Part shown: piece by piece, positions 37,039-57,382 of the stretch | Layout of the letters: the number at the start of each line of letters is the position of its first letter | How positions within the stretch are numbered: position 1 is the first letter of the stretch | Assembly: GCA_963826115.1 (NCBI GenBank) | Contig: CAWGVS010000006.1 | Span: forward strand, 576,001 to 640,000 | Length of the DNA: 64,000 nucleotides | Reading direction: 5' to 3' | From: an uncultured Candidatus Rokubacteria bacterium | Lineage (GTDB): Bacteria > Methylomirabilota > Methylomirabilia > Rokubacteriales > DASRDR01 | Notes under the pieces: generated by a model | Databases searched by the model: none | Seen by the model: only the letters and a program-made list of their open reading frames with translations | Told to the model about the DNA's origin: nothing | Program-made: the position numbers and the translations under genes

Positions 37039-38147
37039 CCACGCGCGCGCCCGCCGTCGTCGGAACGCCCGTCGCCGAGATCGACACGCCCGCGCTCGTC
37101 GTCGACCTCGACGCCTACGAGCACAACCTGGACCTGATGGCCGCGTCGCTCGCCGGCAAGCCGGTCCGCCTCCGCGGCCACGCCAAGACCCACAAGTGCC
37201 CCGTCGTCGCGCTCCACCAGATCGCCCGGGGCGCCGTCGGGTCCTGCTGCCAGAAGGTGAGCGAGGCCGAGGCGATGGTCGCCGGCGGCGTGCGGAACGT
37301 CCTCGTCTCCAACGAGATCGTGGACCGCCGCAAGATCGACCGGCTCGTCGCCCTCGCCCGGCAGGCCGAGGTCTCGGTGTGCGTCGACGACCCCCGGAAC
37401 GTCGACGACCTCGACGCGGCCGCGCGCGCCGCCGGCGTGCGCCTGGCGGTCCTGGTCGAGATCGACGTCGGCAACCTCCGGTGCGGCGTCGCGCCCGGCG
37501 AGCCCGCGGTCGCGCTGGCCCGGCACGTGGCGGCGAAGCGCGGGCTCCGGTTCGCGGGGCTCCAGGCCTACTACGGCCGCGCGCAGCACATCAACGAGGA
37601 GGAGAAGCGCCGGGCGGCGATCGACACGTGCATCGCCGACGTGCGGCACACCGTCGACCTCCTCGCGCGGGAGGGGCTCGCCTGCGAGATGGTGTCGGGC
37701 GCCGGGACCGGCAGCTACCGCTGGGAGGCGGCGAGCGGCGTCTACAACGAGGTCCAGGCCGGCTCCTACTGCTTCATGGACGTGGAGTACGGGCTCGTCG
37801 AGGGCTTCCCGCGCGAGTTCCGGCAGTCGCTCTTCGTCCTGGCGGCCGTCATGAGCCGCCCGGCCCCCGAGCGCGCGGTGGTCGACGCCGGGCTGAAGGC
37901 GCTCTCCGTCGACAAGGGAATGCCGCGCGTCCACGGCCTCGCCGGCGTCGAGTTCCAGCGGGCGTCGGACGAGCACGGCGTGCTGCATGTCGGGCCCGGC
38001 GCCCAGGGCCTCAGCCTCGGCGACCGCGTGTGGCTGATCCCCGGCCACTGCGACCCGACCATCAACCTCTACGACTGGTACGTCGCGGTCCGCGACGGCC
38101 GGGTCGAGGCCCTCTGGCCGATCACCGCGCGCGGCGCGGTCCTGTGA
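37035..38147 (+). CDS. DSD1/D-threonine aldolase family PLP enzyme (3-hydroxy-D-aspartate aldolase-like)
   Basis: TPAL, HAKTHK, CCQK, GAGTG, SDEHG, PGHCDPT. Confidence 0.92.
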   Translation: MTTRAPAVVGTPVAEIDTPALVVDLDAYEHNLDLMAASLAGKPVRLRGHAKTHKCPVVALHQIARGAVGSCCQKVSEAEAMVAGGVRNVLVSNEIVDRRKIDRLVALARQAEVSVCVDDPRNVDDLDAAARAAGVRLAVLVEIDVGNLRCGVAPGEPAVALARHVAAKRGLRFAGLQAYYGRAQHINEEEKRRAAIDTCIADVRHTVDLLAREGLACEMVSGAGTGSYRWEAASGVYNEVQAGSYCFMDVEYGLVEGFPREFRQSLFVLAAVMSRPAPERAVVDAGLKALSVDKGMPRVHGLAGVEFQRASDEHGVLHVGPGAQGLSLGDRVWLIPGHCDPTINLYDWYVAVRDGRVEALWPITARGAVL

Positions 38148-54795: not shown

Positions 54796-55971
54796 ATGAT
54801 GGAGTTGATGATCGCAGAGTCGATGGGACGCCTGGGCACCGAGACCGCCTTCGAGGTGCTGGCGCGGGCGCGCGCGCTCGAGCGCCAGGGCAAGAACGTC
54901 GTGCACCTCGAGATCGGCGAGCCGGACTACGACACGCCGGCGCACATCCGCGAGGCGGCCAAGCGGGCCCTCGACGCGGGCGCGACCCACTACGGGCCCT
55001 CCGCCGGGCTGCCCGAGCTCCGGGAGGCGATCGCCGAGCACATCGAGAAGACCCGCGGCGTGCCGGTCGAGCCGGACGAGGTCGTGGTGACGCCGGGCGC
55101 CAAGCCCATCATGTACTTCGTGATCATGGCGCTCACGAACCCGGGCGACGAGGTCGTCTACCCGAATCCCGGGTTTCCCATCTACGAATCGGTCATCAAC
55201 TTCGTGGGCGGGAAGCCGGTGCCGATCCCGCTCCTCGAGGAGACCGGTTTCGGCTTCGACCTGAAGGAGCTCGAGAAGCGGGTCTCCAAGAAGACCAAGC
55301 TCATCATCATCAACTCTCCCGAGAACCCGACGGGCGGCGTGCTGAGCCCCGAGGACGTCGGCCGGATCGCGGACCTCGCGCGTCACTACCGGGTGCCGGT
55401 GCTGTCGGACGAGATCTACCGGCGCTTCATGTACGACGGCGAGTTTGCCTCGATCGCGAGCCTCCCGGGCATGAAGCCCCAGACGATCATCCTGGACGGC
55501 TTCTCGAAGTCCTACGCGATGACCGGGTGGCGCCTCGGCTTCGGCGTGATGCCGAAGGTGCTCGCCGAGCACCTCACGCGCCTCATGACCAACTCCGTGT
55601 CCTGCACGGCGACGTTCATCCAGCACGCCGGCATCGCCGCGCTGCGGGGCGACGACACGCCGGTGCAGACGATGGTGGAGGAGTTCCGCCACCGGCGCGA
55701 CCTGATCGTCGACGGGCTCAACCGGATCCCGGGCGTCAGCTGCAAGCGGCCGCGCGGCGCGTTCTATGTGTTCCCCAACGTCAAGTCCTTCGAGCGGCCG
55801 TCCAAGGAGATCGCCACCCACCTCCTCGAGAACGCGGGCGTGGCGGTGCTCGGCGGGACCGCCTTCGGCCAGTTCGGCGAGGGGTACCTCCGGCTCTCGT
55901 ACGCGGCCTCGCGCGACACCATCAAGGAAGCGCTCGCGCGCATGGAGCGCGGGCTCGCCAGCCTTCGCTGA
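54796..55971 (+). CDS. Class I/II PLP aminotransferase (AspC-like)
   Basis: GEPD, NSPENPTG, SDEIY, GFSKSYAMTGWRLG; SD GGAGG. Confidence 0.95.
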   Translation: MMELMIAESMGRLGTETAFEVLARARALERQGKNVVHLEIGEPDYDTPAHIREAAKRALDAGATHYGPSAGLPELREAIAEHIEKTRGVPVEPDEVVVTPGAKPIMYFVIMALTNPGDEVVYPNPGFPIYESVINFVGGKPVPIPLLEETGFGFDLKELEKRVSKKTKLIIINSPENPTGGVLSPEDVGRIADLARHYRVPVLSDEIYRRFMYDGEFASIASLPGMKPQTIILDGFSKSYAMTGWRLGFGVMPKVLAEHLTRLMTNSVSCTATFIQHAGIAALRGDDTPVQTMVEEFRHRRDLIVDGLNRIPGVSCKRPRGAFYVFPNVKSFERPSKEIATHLLENAGVAVLGGTAFGQFGEGYLRLSYAASRDTIKEALARMERGLASLR

Positions 55972-55980
55972 GGGAATGCC

Positions 55981-56661
55981 ATGGCGATCCTGACGGAGCG
56001 GGACCGCGCGGCGGTCCGCGGCGAGCTCCAGAAGCTCGCGGGCCCGGTCAAGCTGGTCGTGTTCTCGACGCAGCTCGGCGCGTCGGAGTACTGTCTGGAG
56101 ACGGAGCGGCTGGTCAAGGAGGTCGCGGAGTGCTCCGACCTGGTCACCGTGGAGATCCTGAACCTCCACATCGACCGGGAGCGAGCCGAGGCCTACGGCG
56201 TGGACCGCGTGCCCGCCATCGTGGTCGAGGGCGCGCGCGACTACGGGATCCGCTTCGTCGGCATCCCGATGGGCTACGAGTTCACGAACCTGATCGACTC
56301 GATGATCACCGCCTCATCCGGGACGCCGTCCCTCAGCGCCGAGACGCTCGAGCGCCTCGCCGGCCTCAAGGAGCGGGTCCACATCCAGGTCTTCTCCACC
56401 CCCACCTGACCCCACTGCCCCCGGGCCGTGCGCCTGGCGCATCACCTCGCGGTGGCCTCGGAGTGGATCCGCGGCGACTGCGTGGAGGCGACCGAGTTCC
56501 CCGACCTGGCCCAGCGCTACAGCGTCATGGCCGTGCCGAAGACCGTGGTCAACGACCGCGTGTCGTTCGAGGGCGCCGTGCCCGAGGCCGAGTTCGTCGA
56601 CGCGGTCCTCCGCGCGGTGGGCGCGCCGGACGCGGGCGGCGAGAACGAGGAGCCGCGATGA
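55981..56661 (+). CDS. Protein-disulfide oxidoreductase (AhpF-NTD/PDO-like, two thioredoxin folds), probable selenoprotein with Sec143 (TGA 56407-56409)
   Basis: One continuous frame ...FSTPT-TGA-PHCPRAV...YSVMAVPKTVVND...FEGAVPE; TGA aligns to the first Cys of the CPxC site; 226 codons. Confidence 0.85.
56412..56455 (+). promoter_or_regulatory. Putative bacterial SECIS hairpin immediately 3' of the UGA
   Basis: CCACUGC (56412-18) pairs with GCGGUGG (56449-55); apical GUGCGC-CUG-GCGCAU (56428-42), loop about 25 nt after the UGA. Confidence 0.5.
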
Positions 56662-56735
56662 CCTGGGAGCAGGCGCTCGCCGCCCTGGCGATCGGCGCCG
56701 TCGTCGTGCTCCTCTGGCGCCGGGGCCTCGGCTGA
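56658..56735 (+). CDS. Small single-TM peptide MTWEQALAALAIGAVVVLLWRRGLG* (possible readthrough to TAG 56819)
   Basis: ATGA overlap with the PDO stop, GAGGAG SD, hydrophobic helix followed by RR. Confidence 0.6.
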   Translation: MTWEQALAALAIGAVVVLLWRRGLG

Positions 56736-56842
56736 CGCCCGCCCCCGGGCCCCGGCGGGGCGCCCACGTCGTCGGCCGACCGGCAGAGCGGCCCGACCGA
56801 CCCCGCACCCCGCCGCTAGGTCGCCGGCGCCCCCGGGCGGGC

Positions 56843-57382
56843 TCAGCCGCCCGCGAGGAACGCCGGGTCGACGCGGATCTCGTGGAGGAACGTGATCGCC
56901 CCGGCCGGATCGCGCTCGACGAGGCGGACGAGGTCGGGCGCTTCCCAGAAGACGTACGCCGGGCGCGGCACCGCGTACGCGACCGCGTGGCCGTCGCGCA
57001 CGCGCACCACCCGGAGCACCGGGCTCCCGCCTGACGCGAGGTAGGCGTAGAAGCGGCCGTCGTTGCGCGCGGCGGCGGGCCGCGGGATCCCGTCGAACAC
57101 CTGGACGAGGCGGCGGTCCTCCCGGACCAGCCACGTCTCGTAGCCGCGGTCCGCGCCCACCGGCTCGGCCCGGCTCGGGTGCGGCCCCATCTCGCGGGCG
57201 GTCTCGCCGGCGATCCGGAGCGGCGTGCGCACGCGGTACGTGCGCACGCGGTAGTCGGCGCCCACCGGGAGGTCGAAGGACGCGCGCGTGTACACGTCGC
57301 AGGACGTGGCGGCGGCGGCCGCCACCGCCACGACGGCGAGGCCGGCGAAGAGGAGTGGCCGGGTGATCCCCAATCGGCGCAT
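56843..57382 (-). CDS. Hypothetical exported protein
   Basis: 179-aa ORF with signal-like N-terminus and GC3 bias. Confidence 0.65.
   Translation of the reverse strand: MRRLGITRPLLFAGLAVVAVAAAAATSCDVYTRASFDLPVGADYRVRTYRVRTPLRIAGETAREMGPHPSRAEPVGADRGYETWLVREDRRLVQVFDGIPRPAAARNDGRFYAYLASGGSPVLRVVRVRDGHAVAYAVPRPAYVFWEAPDLVRLVERDPAGAITFLHEIRVDPAFLAGG

What the first reader, a model, noticed from the sequence alone, without database searches (positions are those of the whole stretch)
55981..56661. Hidden selenoprotein: PDO/AhpF-NTD-like oxidoreductase with a UPHC active site and SECIS-like hairpin
Seen: the ORF track splits this gene into 55981-56409 and 56428-56661, but both halves are in one frame separated by a single TGA in the context FSTPT-TGA-PHC. 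A hairpin follows immediately (CCACUGC/GCGGUGG lower stem, GUGCGC-CUG-GCGCAU apex). The N-terminal redox site is degenerate (SEYC). Established: PDOs of the Pyrococcus furiosus type are about this length with a C-terminal CPYC, and bacterial Sec insertion uses UGA plus an adjacent 3' SECIS. Inference: UGA143 encodes Sec, giving a UxxC thiol oxidoreductase that standard gene callers would miss. The apical loop does not match the E. coli fdhF-type consensus (G in the first loop positions), so the SECIS may be lineage-specific.
Basis: partly seen in the sequence, partly recalled or inferred. Interest (0 to 1): 0.85.

Follow-up and report, generated by a model that had tools for sequence, protein, structure and literature searches.

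The report
Selenocysteine disulfide oxidoreductase, known family
The two short reading frames are one gene for a thioredoxin-fold disulfide oxidoreductase whose active-site cysteine is replaced by selenocysteine, a real but already catalogued kind of selenoprotein that routine gene calling cuts in half.

Summary
Window 55981-56661 is one frame, broken only by TGA at 56407-56409 (TPT-U-PHC). The gene is a full-length member of NCBIfam TIGR02187 "PDO_seleno_TRX".

Evidence that the TGA encodes selenocysteine:
- It sits at the same column in 30 of 30 orthologues fetched.
- All 81 family matches in 121 genomes of the phylum carry an in-frame TGA.
- Homologues from other phyla have TGC or TGT at that column.
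- The genome holds selA, selB, tRNA-Sec and selD.
- The part after the TGA is under purifying selection.

The conserved element is a smaller hairpin inside it, 56416-56441. It has a 6-bp stem and a CGUGC loop that begins 17 nt after UGA. Six consecutive codons across it are invariant in 30 of 30 orthologues. It meets the published bacterial SECIS model and resembles the hairpins of about 19 other selenoprotein candidates in this genome. So the SECIS is canonical, not lineage-specific.

[quoted passage not shown] This is a new member of a known kind, and interest is modest.

The parts
55981..56661 (+). Whole coding sequence of the selenoprotein: 226 residues, with the true stop TGA at 56659-56661. 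A GAGG Shine-Dalgarno-like motif overlaps the stop of the upstream aminotransferase gene.
   Evidence: frame. (TIGR02187, 262.5 bits, residues 6-211 on model positions 2-208 of 209). (1J08 E 6.5e-45, 1A8L E 6.8e-44, query residues 1-213). (median dN/dS 0.32 before and 0.24 after the TGA).
56407..56418 (+). Redox motif U143-P-H-C146. The Sec codon TGA is 56407-56409.
   Evidence: TGA at this column in 30 of 30 orthologues. All 81 matches in the phylum sample carry one in-frame TGA. Cys in 15 of 16 full-length distant homologues. Among 80 loci from other lineages the codon is TGA 23, TGC 32, TGT 22, with no motif found in 3.
56416..56441 (+). Proposed SECIS, called hairpin B here. Lower stem UGC/GCA (56416-18 with 56439-41). 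Upper stem CCGGGC/GCCUGG (56421-26 with 56432-37). Apical loop CGUGC (56427-31), which begins 17 nt after the UGA.
   Evidence: RNAalifold consensus of the 30 orthologues. 96.8% of cells paired; pair 21-42 is CG 14, UA 6, unpaired 8. Codons 147-152 (56419-56436) use one codon each in 30 of 30. The hairpin alone folds at -11.6 kcal/mol. All six upper pairs form in 11 of 22 distant Sec forms against 1 of 54 Cys forms. It is of the same type as the hairpins of other selenoprotein candidates of this genome.
56412..56456 (+). It is present and thermodynamically favoured in this sequence but is not conserved.
   Evidence: MFE fold; apex pair 34-42 is unpaired in 14 of 28 distinct sequences, lower pair 16-57 in 23 of 28, and no measure exceeds the shuffles; the apex is fully paired in 0 of 22 distant Sec forms.
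56083..56094 (+). Degenerate N-terminal site S35-E-Y-C38, aligned with CQYC of the Pyrococcus PDOs.
   Evidence: alignment; the first Cys is absent in 30 of 30 orthologues, and the second is also replaced (S, T, A) in several.
56658..56735 (+). 25-codon hydrophobic ORF (MTWEQALAALAIGAVVVLLWRRGLG). Its ATG overlaps the selenoprotein's stop (ATGA). It is a possible translationally coupled membrane peptide of unknown function.
   Evidence: by eye a similar ORF is seen downstream in 13 of 14 same-genus loci, and a longer variant in 4 of 5 family-level loci. No Pfam match.

Best explanation
Window 55981-56661 encodes one 226-residue protein of the protein-disulfide-oxidoreductase (PDO) / AhpF-N-terminal-domain family. 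It has two tandem thioredoxin folds. Only the C-terminal redox motif is intact, and its first cysteine is replaced by selenocysteine (U143-P-H-C146).

UGA143 is recoded by the genome's own SelA/SelB/tRNA-Sec/SelD machinery. SelB is recruited by a small in-frame hairpin at 56416-56441: a 6-bp upper stem and a CGUGC loop with GU at positions 2-3, starting 17 nt after the UGA.

Shown here: the single frame, family membership, the conserved UGA, Cys/Sec pairing, the Sec machinery, and RNA-level constraint on the hairpin.

Inferred, not shown:
- Sec is actually inserted.
- The protein cycles between a selenol/thiol and a selenenylsulfide form.
- It passes reducing equivalents, probably from an unlinked thioredoxin reductase, to disulfide substrates such as peroxiredoxins, as the AhpF N-terminal domain does for AhpC.
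For: 1. One frame with one internal TGA.
2. Full-length TIGR02187 'PDO_seleno_TRX' match, 262.5 bits against a cut-off of 185. Pfam Thioredoxin_3. End-to-end alignment with solved PDOs 1J08 and 1A8L, with U143 on the first Cys of CPYC.
3. TGA at the same column in 30 of 30 orthologues of 58-100% identity. All 81 matches in 121 genomes of the phylum carry one in-frame TGA (two of those genomes, G080 and G119, are unpublished).
4. Cys at that column in 15 of 16 full-length distant homologues. Across other phyla the codon is TGA 23, TGC 32, TGT 22 of 80 loci.
5. tRNA-Sec scores 76.9 bits with anticodon tca. selA (576 bits) and selB (348 bits) lie next to it on contig C8. selD (393 bits) itself holds an in-frame TGA.
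6. TGA is still the normal stop: it ends the gene in 26 of 30 orthologues.
7. Purifying selection after the TGA (median dN/dS 0.24). P144, C146, P147, R148 and A149, which lie before the GTG of the second table-11 ORF, are invariant in 30 of 30.
8. Hairpin B is the RNAalifold consensus with 96.8% of cells paired. Six consecutive 4- to 6-fold degenerate codons across it are invariant in 30 of 30, the only such run in the gene.
9. Hairpin B meets all four constraints of the published bacterial SECIS model (passage of PMC13188914).
10. A strict hairpin of this type occurs after 15 of 20 selenoprotein-candidate TGAs of this genome, against 2 of 245 other in-frame TGAs. All 19 other candidates match Pfam families; the match spans the TGA in 18 and ends three residues before it in L140.
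11. All six upper pairs form in 11 of 22 distant Sec forms against 1 of 54 Cys forms.
12. Metatranscriptome contigs of two studies bridge the TGA, and no change is listed at 56407-56409.
Against: - No direct evidence of selenium in the protein.
- Within the order hairpin B is invariant, so only one pair (21-42) covaries, and it is unpaired in 8 of 28 distinct sequences.
- A third, overlapping 4-bp register (GUGC/GCNC, loop GCCUG) is also enriched in Sec forms, 10 of 22 against 5 of 54. It is the main hairpin in some Chloroflexota and Bacillota Sec forms. The exact pairing used by SelB is therefore not settled.
- The loop GU is simply the conserved Val150 codon and is present in Cys forms too, 52 of 54.
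- Rfam has no matching SECIS family.
- The 20 genome candidates were picked by eye before the hairpin count.
- The relatives are kin, not independent samples.
- No redox partner is adjacent in this genome; the canonical thioredoxin reductase is on another contig.
Confidence: 0.9

Rival explanations
1. The gene is a selenoprotein, but the functional SECIS is the reader's large hairpin (apex GUGCGC-CUG-GCGCAU), or the overlapping 4-bp register GUGC-GCCUG-GCGC, rather than hairpin B. On this reading it is a lineage-adapted element.
For: Register GUGC/GCNC is fully paired in 10 of 22 distant Sec forms against 5 of 54 Cys forms. The equivalent position carries the best hairpin in L094, L098 and L122.
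Against: The apex is fully paired in 0 of 22 distant Sec forms. Its CUG loop lacks the G required by the model. The 4-bp register gives only -4.0 kcal/mol, short of the model's -7.5.
Confidence: 0.1
2. The TGA is a true stop. The locus is a split gene or two separate genes: a 142-aa N-terminal thioredoxin-fold protein and a 77-aa C-terminal one that starts at GTG 56428.
For: Table 11 yields exactly these ORFs. Public databases hold many 141-142-aa products.
Against: The second ORF would start after the redox motif and so would lack any active site. Residues 144-149, between the TGA and that GTG, are conserved as protein in 30 of 30. The TGA is never replaced by another stop in the 30 orthologues read, and all 81 matches of the phylum sample carry one in-frame TGA. 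Homologues in other phyla are single full-length proteins with Cys there. A SECIS-type hairpin and the full Sec machinery are present.
Confidence: 0.03
3. The UGA is read through, but by a near-cognate tRNA (Cys or Trp) or by a lineage-wide reassignment of UGA rather than by Sec-tRNA.
For: Sequence alone cannot tell which residue is inserted.
Against: TGA ends this same gene in 26 of 30 orthologues, so it is not reassigned. A dedicated tRNA-Sec, selA, selB and selD are present. The hairpin type is specific to candidate Sec codons, 15 of 20 against 2 of 245.
Confidence: 0.03
4. The TGA is a sequencing or assembly error, or the gene is a recent pseudogene.
For: None beyond the bare presence of a stop codon.
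Against: The same codon occurs at the same column in the 30 independently assembled genomes read, and all 81 matches of the phylum sample carry one in-frame TGA. dN/dS after it is 0.24. DNA and RNA contigs of other runs bridge it, and no change is listed there.
Confidence: 0.01

Closest known systems
[quoted passage not shown] Source: tables in PMC13188914 and PMC9312934. PMC1794560 lists it in Carboxydothermus hydrogenoformans and Symbiobacterium thermophilum.
   Same: Same NCBIfam model. Same UxxC position in the C-terminal thioredoxin fold. Same Cys/Sec pairing. A SECIS lies directly 3' of the UGA.
   Different: The lineage differs: the closest named relatives are Methylomirabilota / Rokubacteria MAGs. 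Here every one of the 81 matches in the phylum sample carries an in-frame TGA. I did not fetch or align ABB15282.1 itself.
Protein disulfide oxidoreductases of Pyrococcus furiosus (PDB 1A8L) and P. horikoshii (1J08), Aquifex aeolicus (2AYT, 2YWM) and Aeropyrum pernix (2HLS)
   Same: Same length and an end-to-end alignment (E 6.8e-44 to 1.5e-28). The C-terminal TPTCPYCP motif aligns with TPTUPHCP.
   Different: Those proteins carry Cys, not Sec. The Pyrococcus proteins have a second, N-terminal CQYC, which is SEYC here and lacks its first Cys in 30 of 30 orthologues.
N-terminal domain of alkyl hydroperoxide reductase subunit F (AhpF; PDB 1ZYN, 1HYU, 4O5Q)
   Same: Two thioredoxin folds, with the single redox motif in the second one. 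Detectable homology (E 1.2e-14; TIGR03140 74.4 bits). The proposed direction of electron flow to a peroxiredoxin is the same.
   Different: There is no fused FAD/NADH reductase part: the protein is 226 aa, and 74.4 bits falls far short of the AhpF cut-off of 502.9. No ahpC is adjacent in this genome. Two of 30 relatives have a Sec-peroxiredoxin gene immediately downstream.
Consensus bacterial SECIS model (bSECISearch model as given in the Fig. 2 legend of PMC13188914)
   Same: Hairpin B has a 5-nt loop, a 6-bp upper stem, G at loop position 2 followed by U, a 17-nt spacing, and folds at -11.6 kcal/mol alone.
   Different: The loop's first and last bases (C, C) cannot form the N1-N2 pair that the commonest pattern shows. 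No Rfam SECIS family matches.

Membership tests
TIGR02187 PDO_seleno_TRX (protein disulfide oxidoreductase) | Whole-protein score above the curated cut-off, over the full model | tested here: met
   262.5 bits against a cut-off of 185; residues 6-211 on model positions 2-208 of 209.
TIGR02187 PDO_seleno_TRX (protein disulfide oxidoreductase) | Two tandem thioredoxin folds in about 226 residues | tested here: met
   Tested by sequence only. The protein aligns end to end (query 1-213) with the solved two-fold PDOs 1J08 and 1A8L. No structure was predicted.
TIGR02187 PDO_seleno_TRX (protein disulfide oxidoreductase) | C-terminal CxxC-type redox motif (CPYC in Pyrococcus) | tested here: met
   UPHC aligns with CPYC, with Sec in place of the first Cys.
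Pyrococcus-type PDO with two active sites | N-terminal CxxC (CQYC) | tested here: not met
   The site reads SEYC here. The first Cys is absent in 30 of 30 orthologues.
TIGR02187 PDO_seleno_TRX (protein disulfide oxidoreductase) | Thiol-disulfide oxidoreductase activity | not testable with these tools
   Needs an enzyme assay.
Bacterial selenoprotein | In-frame UGA aligned with Cys in homologues | tested here: met
   Cys in 15 of 16 full-length homologues. TGC or TGT in 54 and TGA in 23 of 80 loci from other lineages.
Bacterial selenoprotein | UGA conserved among orthologues, with coding constraint downstream | tested here: met
   TGA at the same column in 30 of 30. All 81 phylum matches carry one in-frame TGA. 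dN/dS 0.24 after the UGA.
Bacterial selenoprotein | selA, selB, selC (tRNA-Sec) and selD in the genome | tested here: met
   All four score above the family cut-offs. ARAGORN calls tRNA-SeC with anticodon tca.
Bacterial selenoprotein | Selenium actually incorporated at the UGA | not testable with these tools
   Needs 75Se labelling or mass spectrometry.
Bacterial SECIS (model in PMC13188914, Fig. 2 legend) | Apical loop of 3-9 nt and upper stem of 4-16 bp | tested here: met
   Hairpin B has a loop of 5 nt and a stem of 6 bp.
Bacterial SECIS (model in PMC13188914, Fig. 2 legend) | G in one of the first two loop positions, usually followed by G or U | tested here: met
Hairpin B has the loop CGUGC.
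Bacterial SECIS (model in PMC13188914, Fig. 2 legend) | 16-37 nt between the UGA and the apical loop | tested here: met
   17 nt (56410-56426).
Bacterial SECIS (model in PMC13188914, Fig. 2 legend) | MFE of -7.5 kcal/mol or lower | tested here: met
   -11.6 kcal/mol for 56416-56441 alone. -8.9 for the upper stem-loop.
Bacterial SECIS (model in PMC13188914, Fig. 2 legend) | Base pairs supported by covariation | tested here: inconclusive
   8 of 9 pairs never vary within the order. One pair shows CG 14, UA 6, unpaired 8. Distant Sec forms keep or shift the stem with changed letters, e.g. L062, L069, L096.
Bacterial SECIS (model in PMC13188914, Fig. 2 legend) | Binding by SelB and dependence of read-through on the hairpin | not testable with these tools
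   Needs a reporter or binding assay.
AhpF (alkyl hydroperoxide reductase subunit F) | N-terminal double thioredoxin fold fused to an FAD/NAD(P)H reductase part | tested here: not met
   TIGR03140 scores 74.4 bits against a cut-off of 502.9, and only the N-terminal model positions match. The protein ends at residue 226.

The most novel reading that the evidence does not exclude
The Sec form of this oxidoreductase is fixed across a whole order: no Cys form was seen in 81 matches. It may serve as a central reductant for an unusually large, thioredoxin-fold-rich selenoproteome. It is translationally coupled to a conserved 25-residue membrane peptide that could tether or partner it at the membrane. 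In addition, the stereotyped hairpin of this lineage (NGUNN loop, 16-21 nt after the UGA, 15 of 20 against 2 of 245) could serve as a lineage-specific detector for unknown selenoprotein families.
Probability: 0.1. Interest if true: 0.45.

Novelty: new member of a known kind. Interest (0 to 1): 0.25.

Why it matters
**Annotation.** In public protein collections 104 of the 120 best hits listed are 129-164-aa pieces that cover only the part before the Sec codon. Several are named 'alkyl hydroperoxide reductase subunit AhpF' or 'hypothetical protein'. The active site of a protein present in most genomes of this soil and groundwater lineage is therefore missing from the databases.

**SECIS detail.** Conservation points to a small canonical hairpin, not to the most stable fold. 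Energy-based SECIS calls in very G+C-rich genomes can therefore pick the wrong structure.

**Biology.** Nothing here changes what is known about selenoproteins.

Tried and rejected
- **Rfam** at gathering threshold on the whole window, and at E up to 10 on 56350-56520, gave no SECIS family, only chance matches.
- **Sigma-70 promoter and intrinsic-terminator scans** of 55700-57000 found nothing.
- **A split gene, a pseudogene, a sequencing error and UGA reassignment** were each considered and rejected; see the rivals.
- **Sequencing runs.** All four runs laid are contigs, not raw reads. They cannot show rare variants, expression level or transcript ends. Thirty rows of the table of other letters were not shown. 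Stretches without cover in those runs mean nothing.
- **Redox partner.** I looked for an adjacent partner. The neighbours are an aminotransferase, an RraA-like protein, a PAP2 protein, GTP-PEPCK and an unknown 179-aa protein. No reductase or peroxiredoxin lies nearby. The canonical thioredoxin reductase is on contig C5.
- **Not done.** No structure was predicted and no complex was folded, because the sequence match to solved PDOs was already decisive.
- **Papers.** I saw search listings and passages only of PMC1794560, PMC13188914, PMC9312934 and PMC1088965. Searches inside PMC12013277 and PMC13326102 for AhpF, Methylomirabilota and TIGR02187 found nothing. The study cited in PMC13188914 for a Methylomirabilota MAG with 63 predicted selenoprotein genes was not read. 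Supplements are closed, so I cannot say whether this gene is already on that list. The only search for this lineage's selenoproteins was (3 papers).
Full report
**1. The observation**

Under table 11 the region splits into ORFs 55981-56409 (142 aa) and 56428-56661 (77 aa). Both are in one frame, interrupted only by TGA at 56407-56409 in the context FSTPT-TGA-PHC. Read through, the product has 226 residues and ends at a second TGA, 56659-56661.

It is the minimum-free-energy fold of 56400-56470: -33.6 kcal/mol, z = -2.36, and 6 of 200 shuffles fold at least as well. The N-terminal site reads SEYC; by my count these are residues 35-38.

**2. What the protein is**

- The read-through protein matches NCBIfam TIGR02187, named 'PDO_seleno_TRX', over the full model at 262.5 bits (cut-off 185).
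- The AhpF models match only their N-terminal part and fall far below their cut-offs.
- Pfam gives Thioredoxin_3 on residues 134-210.
- Against solved structures it aligns end to end with the protein disulfide oxidoreductases of Pyrococcus horikoshii (1J08, E 6.5e-45) and P. furiosus (1A8L, E 6.8e-44). Next come Aquifex (2YWM, 2AYT), Aeropyrum (2HLS) and, more distantly, AhpF N-terminal domains (1ZYN, E 1.2e-14).
- U143 lies on the first Cys of the C-terminal CPYC. The N-terminal CQYC of the Pyrococcus proteins is SEYC here.
- With a single redox motif in the second fold, the site layout is that of the AhpF N-terminal domain. There is no fused reductase part.

**3. Is the TGA a selenocysteine codon?**

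*Orthologues.* A search of 40 relatives plus the own genome found a match in 38 of 41 genomes. All 36 matches that cover nearly the whole protein carry an in-frame TGA. I extracted the gene from the 30 loci fetched (58-100% identity). The TGA is at the same column in 30 of 30, in the motif TPT-U-P[HY]C-PRAVRLA.

*Phylum sample.* In an evenly drawn sample of 121 genomes of the phylum, 77 have a family match at E <= 1e-20. All 81 matches show one in-frame TGA, so no Cys form was seen. Genomes G080 and G119 in that sample are unpublished.

*Cys/Sec pairing.* Of 16 full-length homologues of 45-64% identity from the protein collection, 15 have Cys at this column. The exception, P0003, has Leu. Among 80 loci from named public genomes the codon is TGA in 23, TGC in 32 and TGT in 22; in 3 my motif search failed. 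By record title the Sec forms occur in Methylomirabilota / Rokubacteria, NC10, Acidobacteria / Terriglobia, Anaerolineae / Chloroflexota and Bacillota. One of the two search patterns required Cys, so this ratio is not a frequency.

*Machinery.* The genome holds the following:
- a tRNA-Sec (76.9 bits; ARAGORN gives SeC, anticodon tca);
- selA (576 bits) and selB (348 bits, full model) beside it on contig C8;
- selD (393 bits), which itself contains an in-frame TGA.

*TGA is not reassigned.* It ends this same gene in 26 of 30 orthologues.

*Selection.* Median pairwise dN/dS is 0.32 for codons 1-142 and 0.24 for codons 144-212. Residues 144 and 146-149 lie before the GTG of the second table-11 ORF and are invariant in 30 of 30.

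*Transcripts.* Metatranscriptome contigs from two studies bridge the codon: X16 record 11 covers 56269-56489 with 3 differences, and X17 record 20 covers 56346-56444. No other letter is listed at 56407-56409 in any of the four runs laid. These are contigs, and 30 rows of that table were not shown.

**4. The SECIS**

80.5% of cells are paired, and no measure exceeds the shuffles. Apex pair 34-42 is unpaired in 14 of 28 distinct sequences, and lower pair 16-57 in 23 of 28.

*The conserved hairpin (B).* RNAalifold on the same alignment picks a smaller hairpin at window 56416-56441: UGC..CCGGGC-CGUGC-GCCUGG.GCA. In it 96.8% of cells are paired. Eight of nine pairs never vary. The ninth is CG in 14, UA in 6 and unpaired in 8.

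*Constraint at synonymous sites.* The strongest signal is not covariation. Codons 147-152 (CCC CGG GCC GTG CGC CTG, 56419-56436; Pro, Arg, Ala, Val, Arg, Leu) each use a single codon in 30 of 30 orthologues. This is the only run of invariant codons longer than one in the gene. Six of the ten zero-entropy degenerate codons of the gene lie in this stretch (Mann-Whitney p = 0.005).

*Fit to the published model.* Hairpin B meets the bacterial SECIS model quoted in PMC13188914:

| Constraint | Hairpin B |
|---|---|
| Apical loop 3-9 nt | 5 nt |
| Upper stem 4-16 bp | 6 bp |
| G in the first two loop positions, usually followed by G or U | G at position 2, followed by U |
| 16-37 nt from the UGA to the loop | 17 nt |
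| MFE of -7.5 kcal/mol or lower | -11.6 kcal/mol alone |

*Control within the genome.* A scan found 265 in-frame TGAs with coding-like flanks on both sides. I picked 20 by eye as redox-motif candidates, including this gene. All 19 others match Pfam families: AhpC-TSA/Redoxin 7, CMD (AhpD-like) 5, UGSC 2, Rhodanese 2, and one each for molybdopterin oxidoreductase, ThiF and GRDB. The match spans the TGA in 18 of them; in L140 (GRDB) it ends three residues before it. A strict hairpin (GU in the loop, spacing at most 22 nt, stem at least 6 bp, -7.5 kcal/mol or lower) follows 15 of the 20 candidates but only 2 of the other 245 TGAs. Hairpin B is of exactly this type, so the element is ordinary for this genome.

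*Control across phyla.* All six upper pairs of B form at the homologous positions in 11 of 22 Sec forms against 1 of 54 Cys forms. Some Sec forms keep the stem with changed letters (L062, L096, L110) or with a shifted, extended stem (L069).

*Evidence against B.*
- A third 4-bp register is also enriched in Sec forms, 10 of 22 against 5 of 54.
- The loop GU is the Val150 codon and occurs in Cys forms too.
- Rfam has no matching family.

I take hairpin B as the SECIS with about three-in-four confidence. That a SECIS lies in 56416-56445 I consider near certain.

**5. How it probably works**

*Shown:* the gene, the Sec codon, the machinery and the constrained hairpin.

*Inferred from the family:*
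- SelB carrying Sec-tRNA binds the hairpin while the ribosome sits at UGA143.
- The protein cycles between a selenol/thiol and a selenenylsulfide form at U143/C146.
- It transfers reducing equivalents to disulfide substrates.

A canonical thioredoxin reductase exists elsewhere in the genome (C5:885134-886030, 404 bits) and is a plausible donor.

For the acceptor there is one hint. In 2 of 30 related loci (L049, L051) a peroxiredoxin gene with Sec at the peroxidatic position (AFTPGU, AFTSGU) starts at the stop of this gene. In this genome no partner is adjacent.

**6. Comparison with what is known, and novelty**

[quoted passage not shown] It was tabulated in 2006 for Carboxydothermus and Symbiobacterium (PMC1794560) (passages only). 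The NCBIfam model name itself contains 'seleno'. PMC13188914 also reports that a Methylomirabilota MAG was predicted to hold 63 selenoprotein genes. I did not read that study.

The closest named relatives of this gene are Methylomirabilota / Rokubacteria MAGs. In the public protein collection, 104 of the 120 best hits are 129-164-aa fragments that cover only the part before the TGA.

The finding is therefore real and correctly interpreted at its core. It is a new member of a known kind. Its practical value is annotation repair and a corrected SECIS. Interest is 0.25.

Noticed in passing
window 56658-56735 (+): A 25-codon hydrophobic ORF (MTWEQ...LLWRRGLG) whose ATG overlaps the selenoprotein's stop (ATGA). 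By eye a similar ORF follows the gene in 13 of 14 same-genus loci, and a longer variant (...RWVLPRFGVPT) in 4 of 5 family-level loci. None was seen in the order-level loci. No Pfam match.
   Followed up: partly
window 56733-56775 and the same place in L029-L046: The small ORF ends in TGA and is followed about 15 nt later by a G+C-rich hairpin. The hairpin changes by compensating letters between relatives (of the type GGCUCCG...CGGAGCC against GGCUUCGG...CCGAAGCC). The read-through tails are not conserved, so a terminator-like stem seems more likely than a second SECIS. This was not tested.
   Followed up: no
G000, 19 places listed (loci L138-L156): The genome holds at least 19 further candidate selenoprotein genes: AhpC-TSA/Redoxin 7, CMD (AhpD-like) 5, UGSC 2, rhodanese 2, formate-dehydrogenase-like molybdopterin oxidoreductase 1, ThiF/MoeB-like 1, GRDB-like 1. 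Most have an NGUNN-loop hairpin 16-21 nt after the TGA.
   Followed up: partly
G000:C5 + strand, oriented position 1830615; G000:C11 + strand, oriented position 37408: Two further in-frame TGAs that I had not picked as candidates also carry the strict SECIS-type hairpin (contexts HVUTAC and GFLUTR). They may be additional selenoprotein genes.
   Followed up: no
G000:C5:561687-562604 (L009); G000:C8:81424-86039: selD itself contains an in-frame TGA. selB, selA and tRNA-Sec lie together on contig C8.
   Followed up: partly
L049 (917-2221, - strand) and L051 (1476-2675): In two order-level relatives, a BCP-like peroxiredoxin gene with an in-frame TGA at the peroxidatic position (AFTPGU, AFTSGU) and an N-terminal hydrophobic segment starts at the stop of the oxidoreductase gene.
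   Followed up: partly
L042, L043, L045, L046, L048, L050, L052-L057, downstream of the gene: Many family- and order-level relatives have an ORF with the motif LFAYGTLM(R/S/T)G directly downstream. It looks like a gamma-glutamylcyclotransferase-like protein; that name is from memory and was not tested.
   Followed up: no
protein P0003: A 219-aa database protein, 64% identical, shows Leu (TPTLPYC) at the Sec column, while all genomic orthologues read here have TGA.
   Followed up: no
window 56377-56438: In soil and freshwater metagenome and metatranscriptome contigs, several records of other organisms match only this 62-nt stretch (redox motif plus hairpin) and diverge on both sides (tables 7 and 8). 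This fits the exceptional nucleotide conservation of this piece.
   Followed up: no
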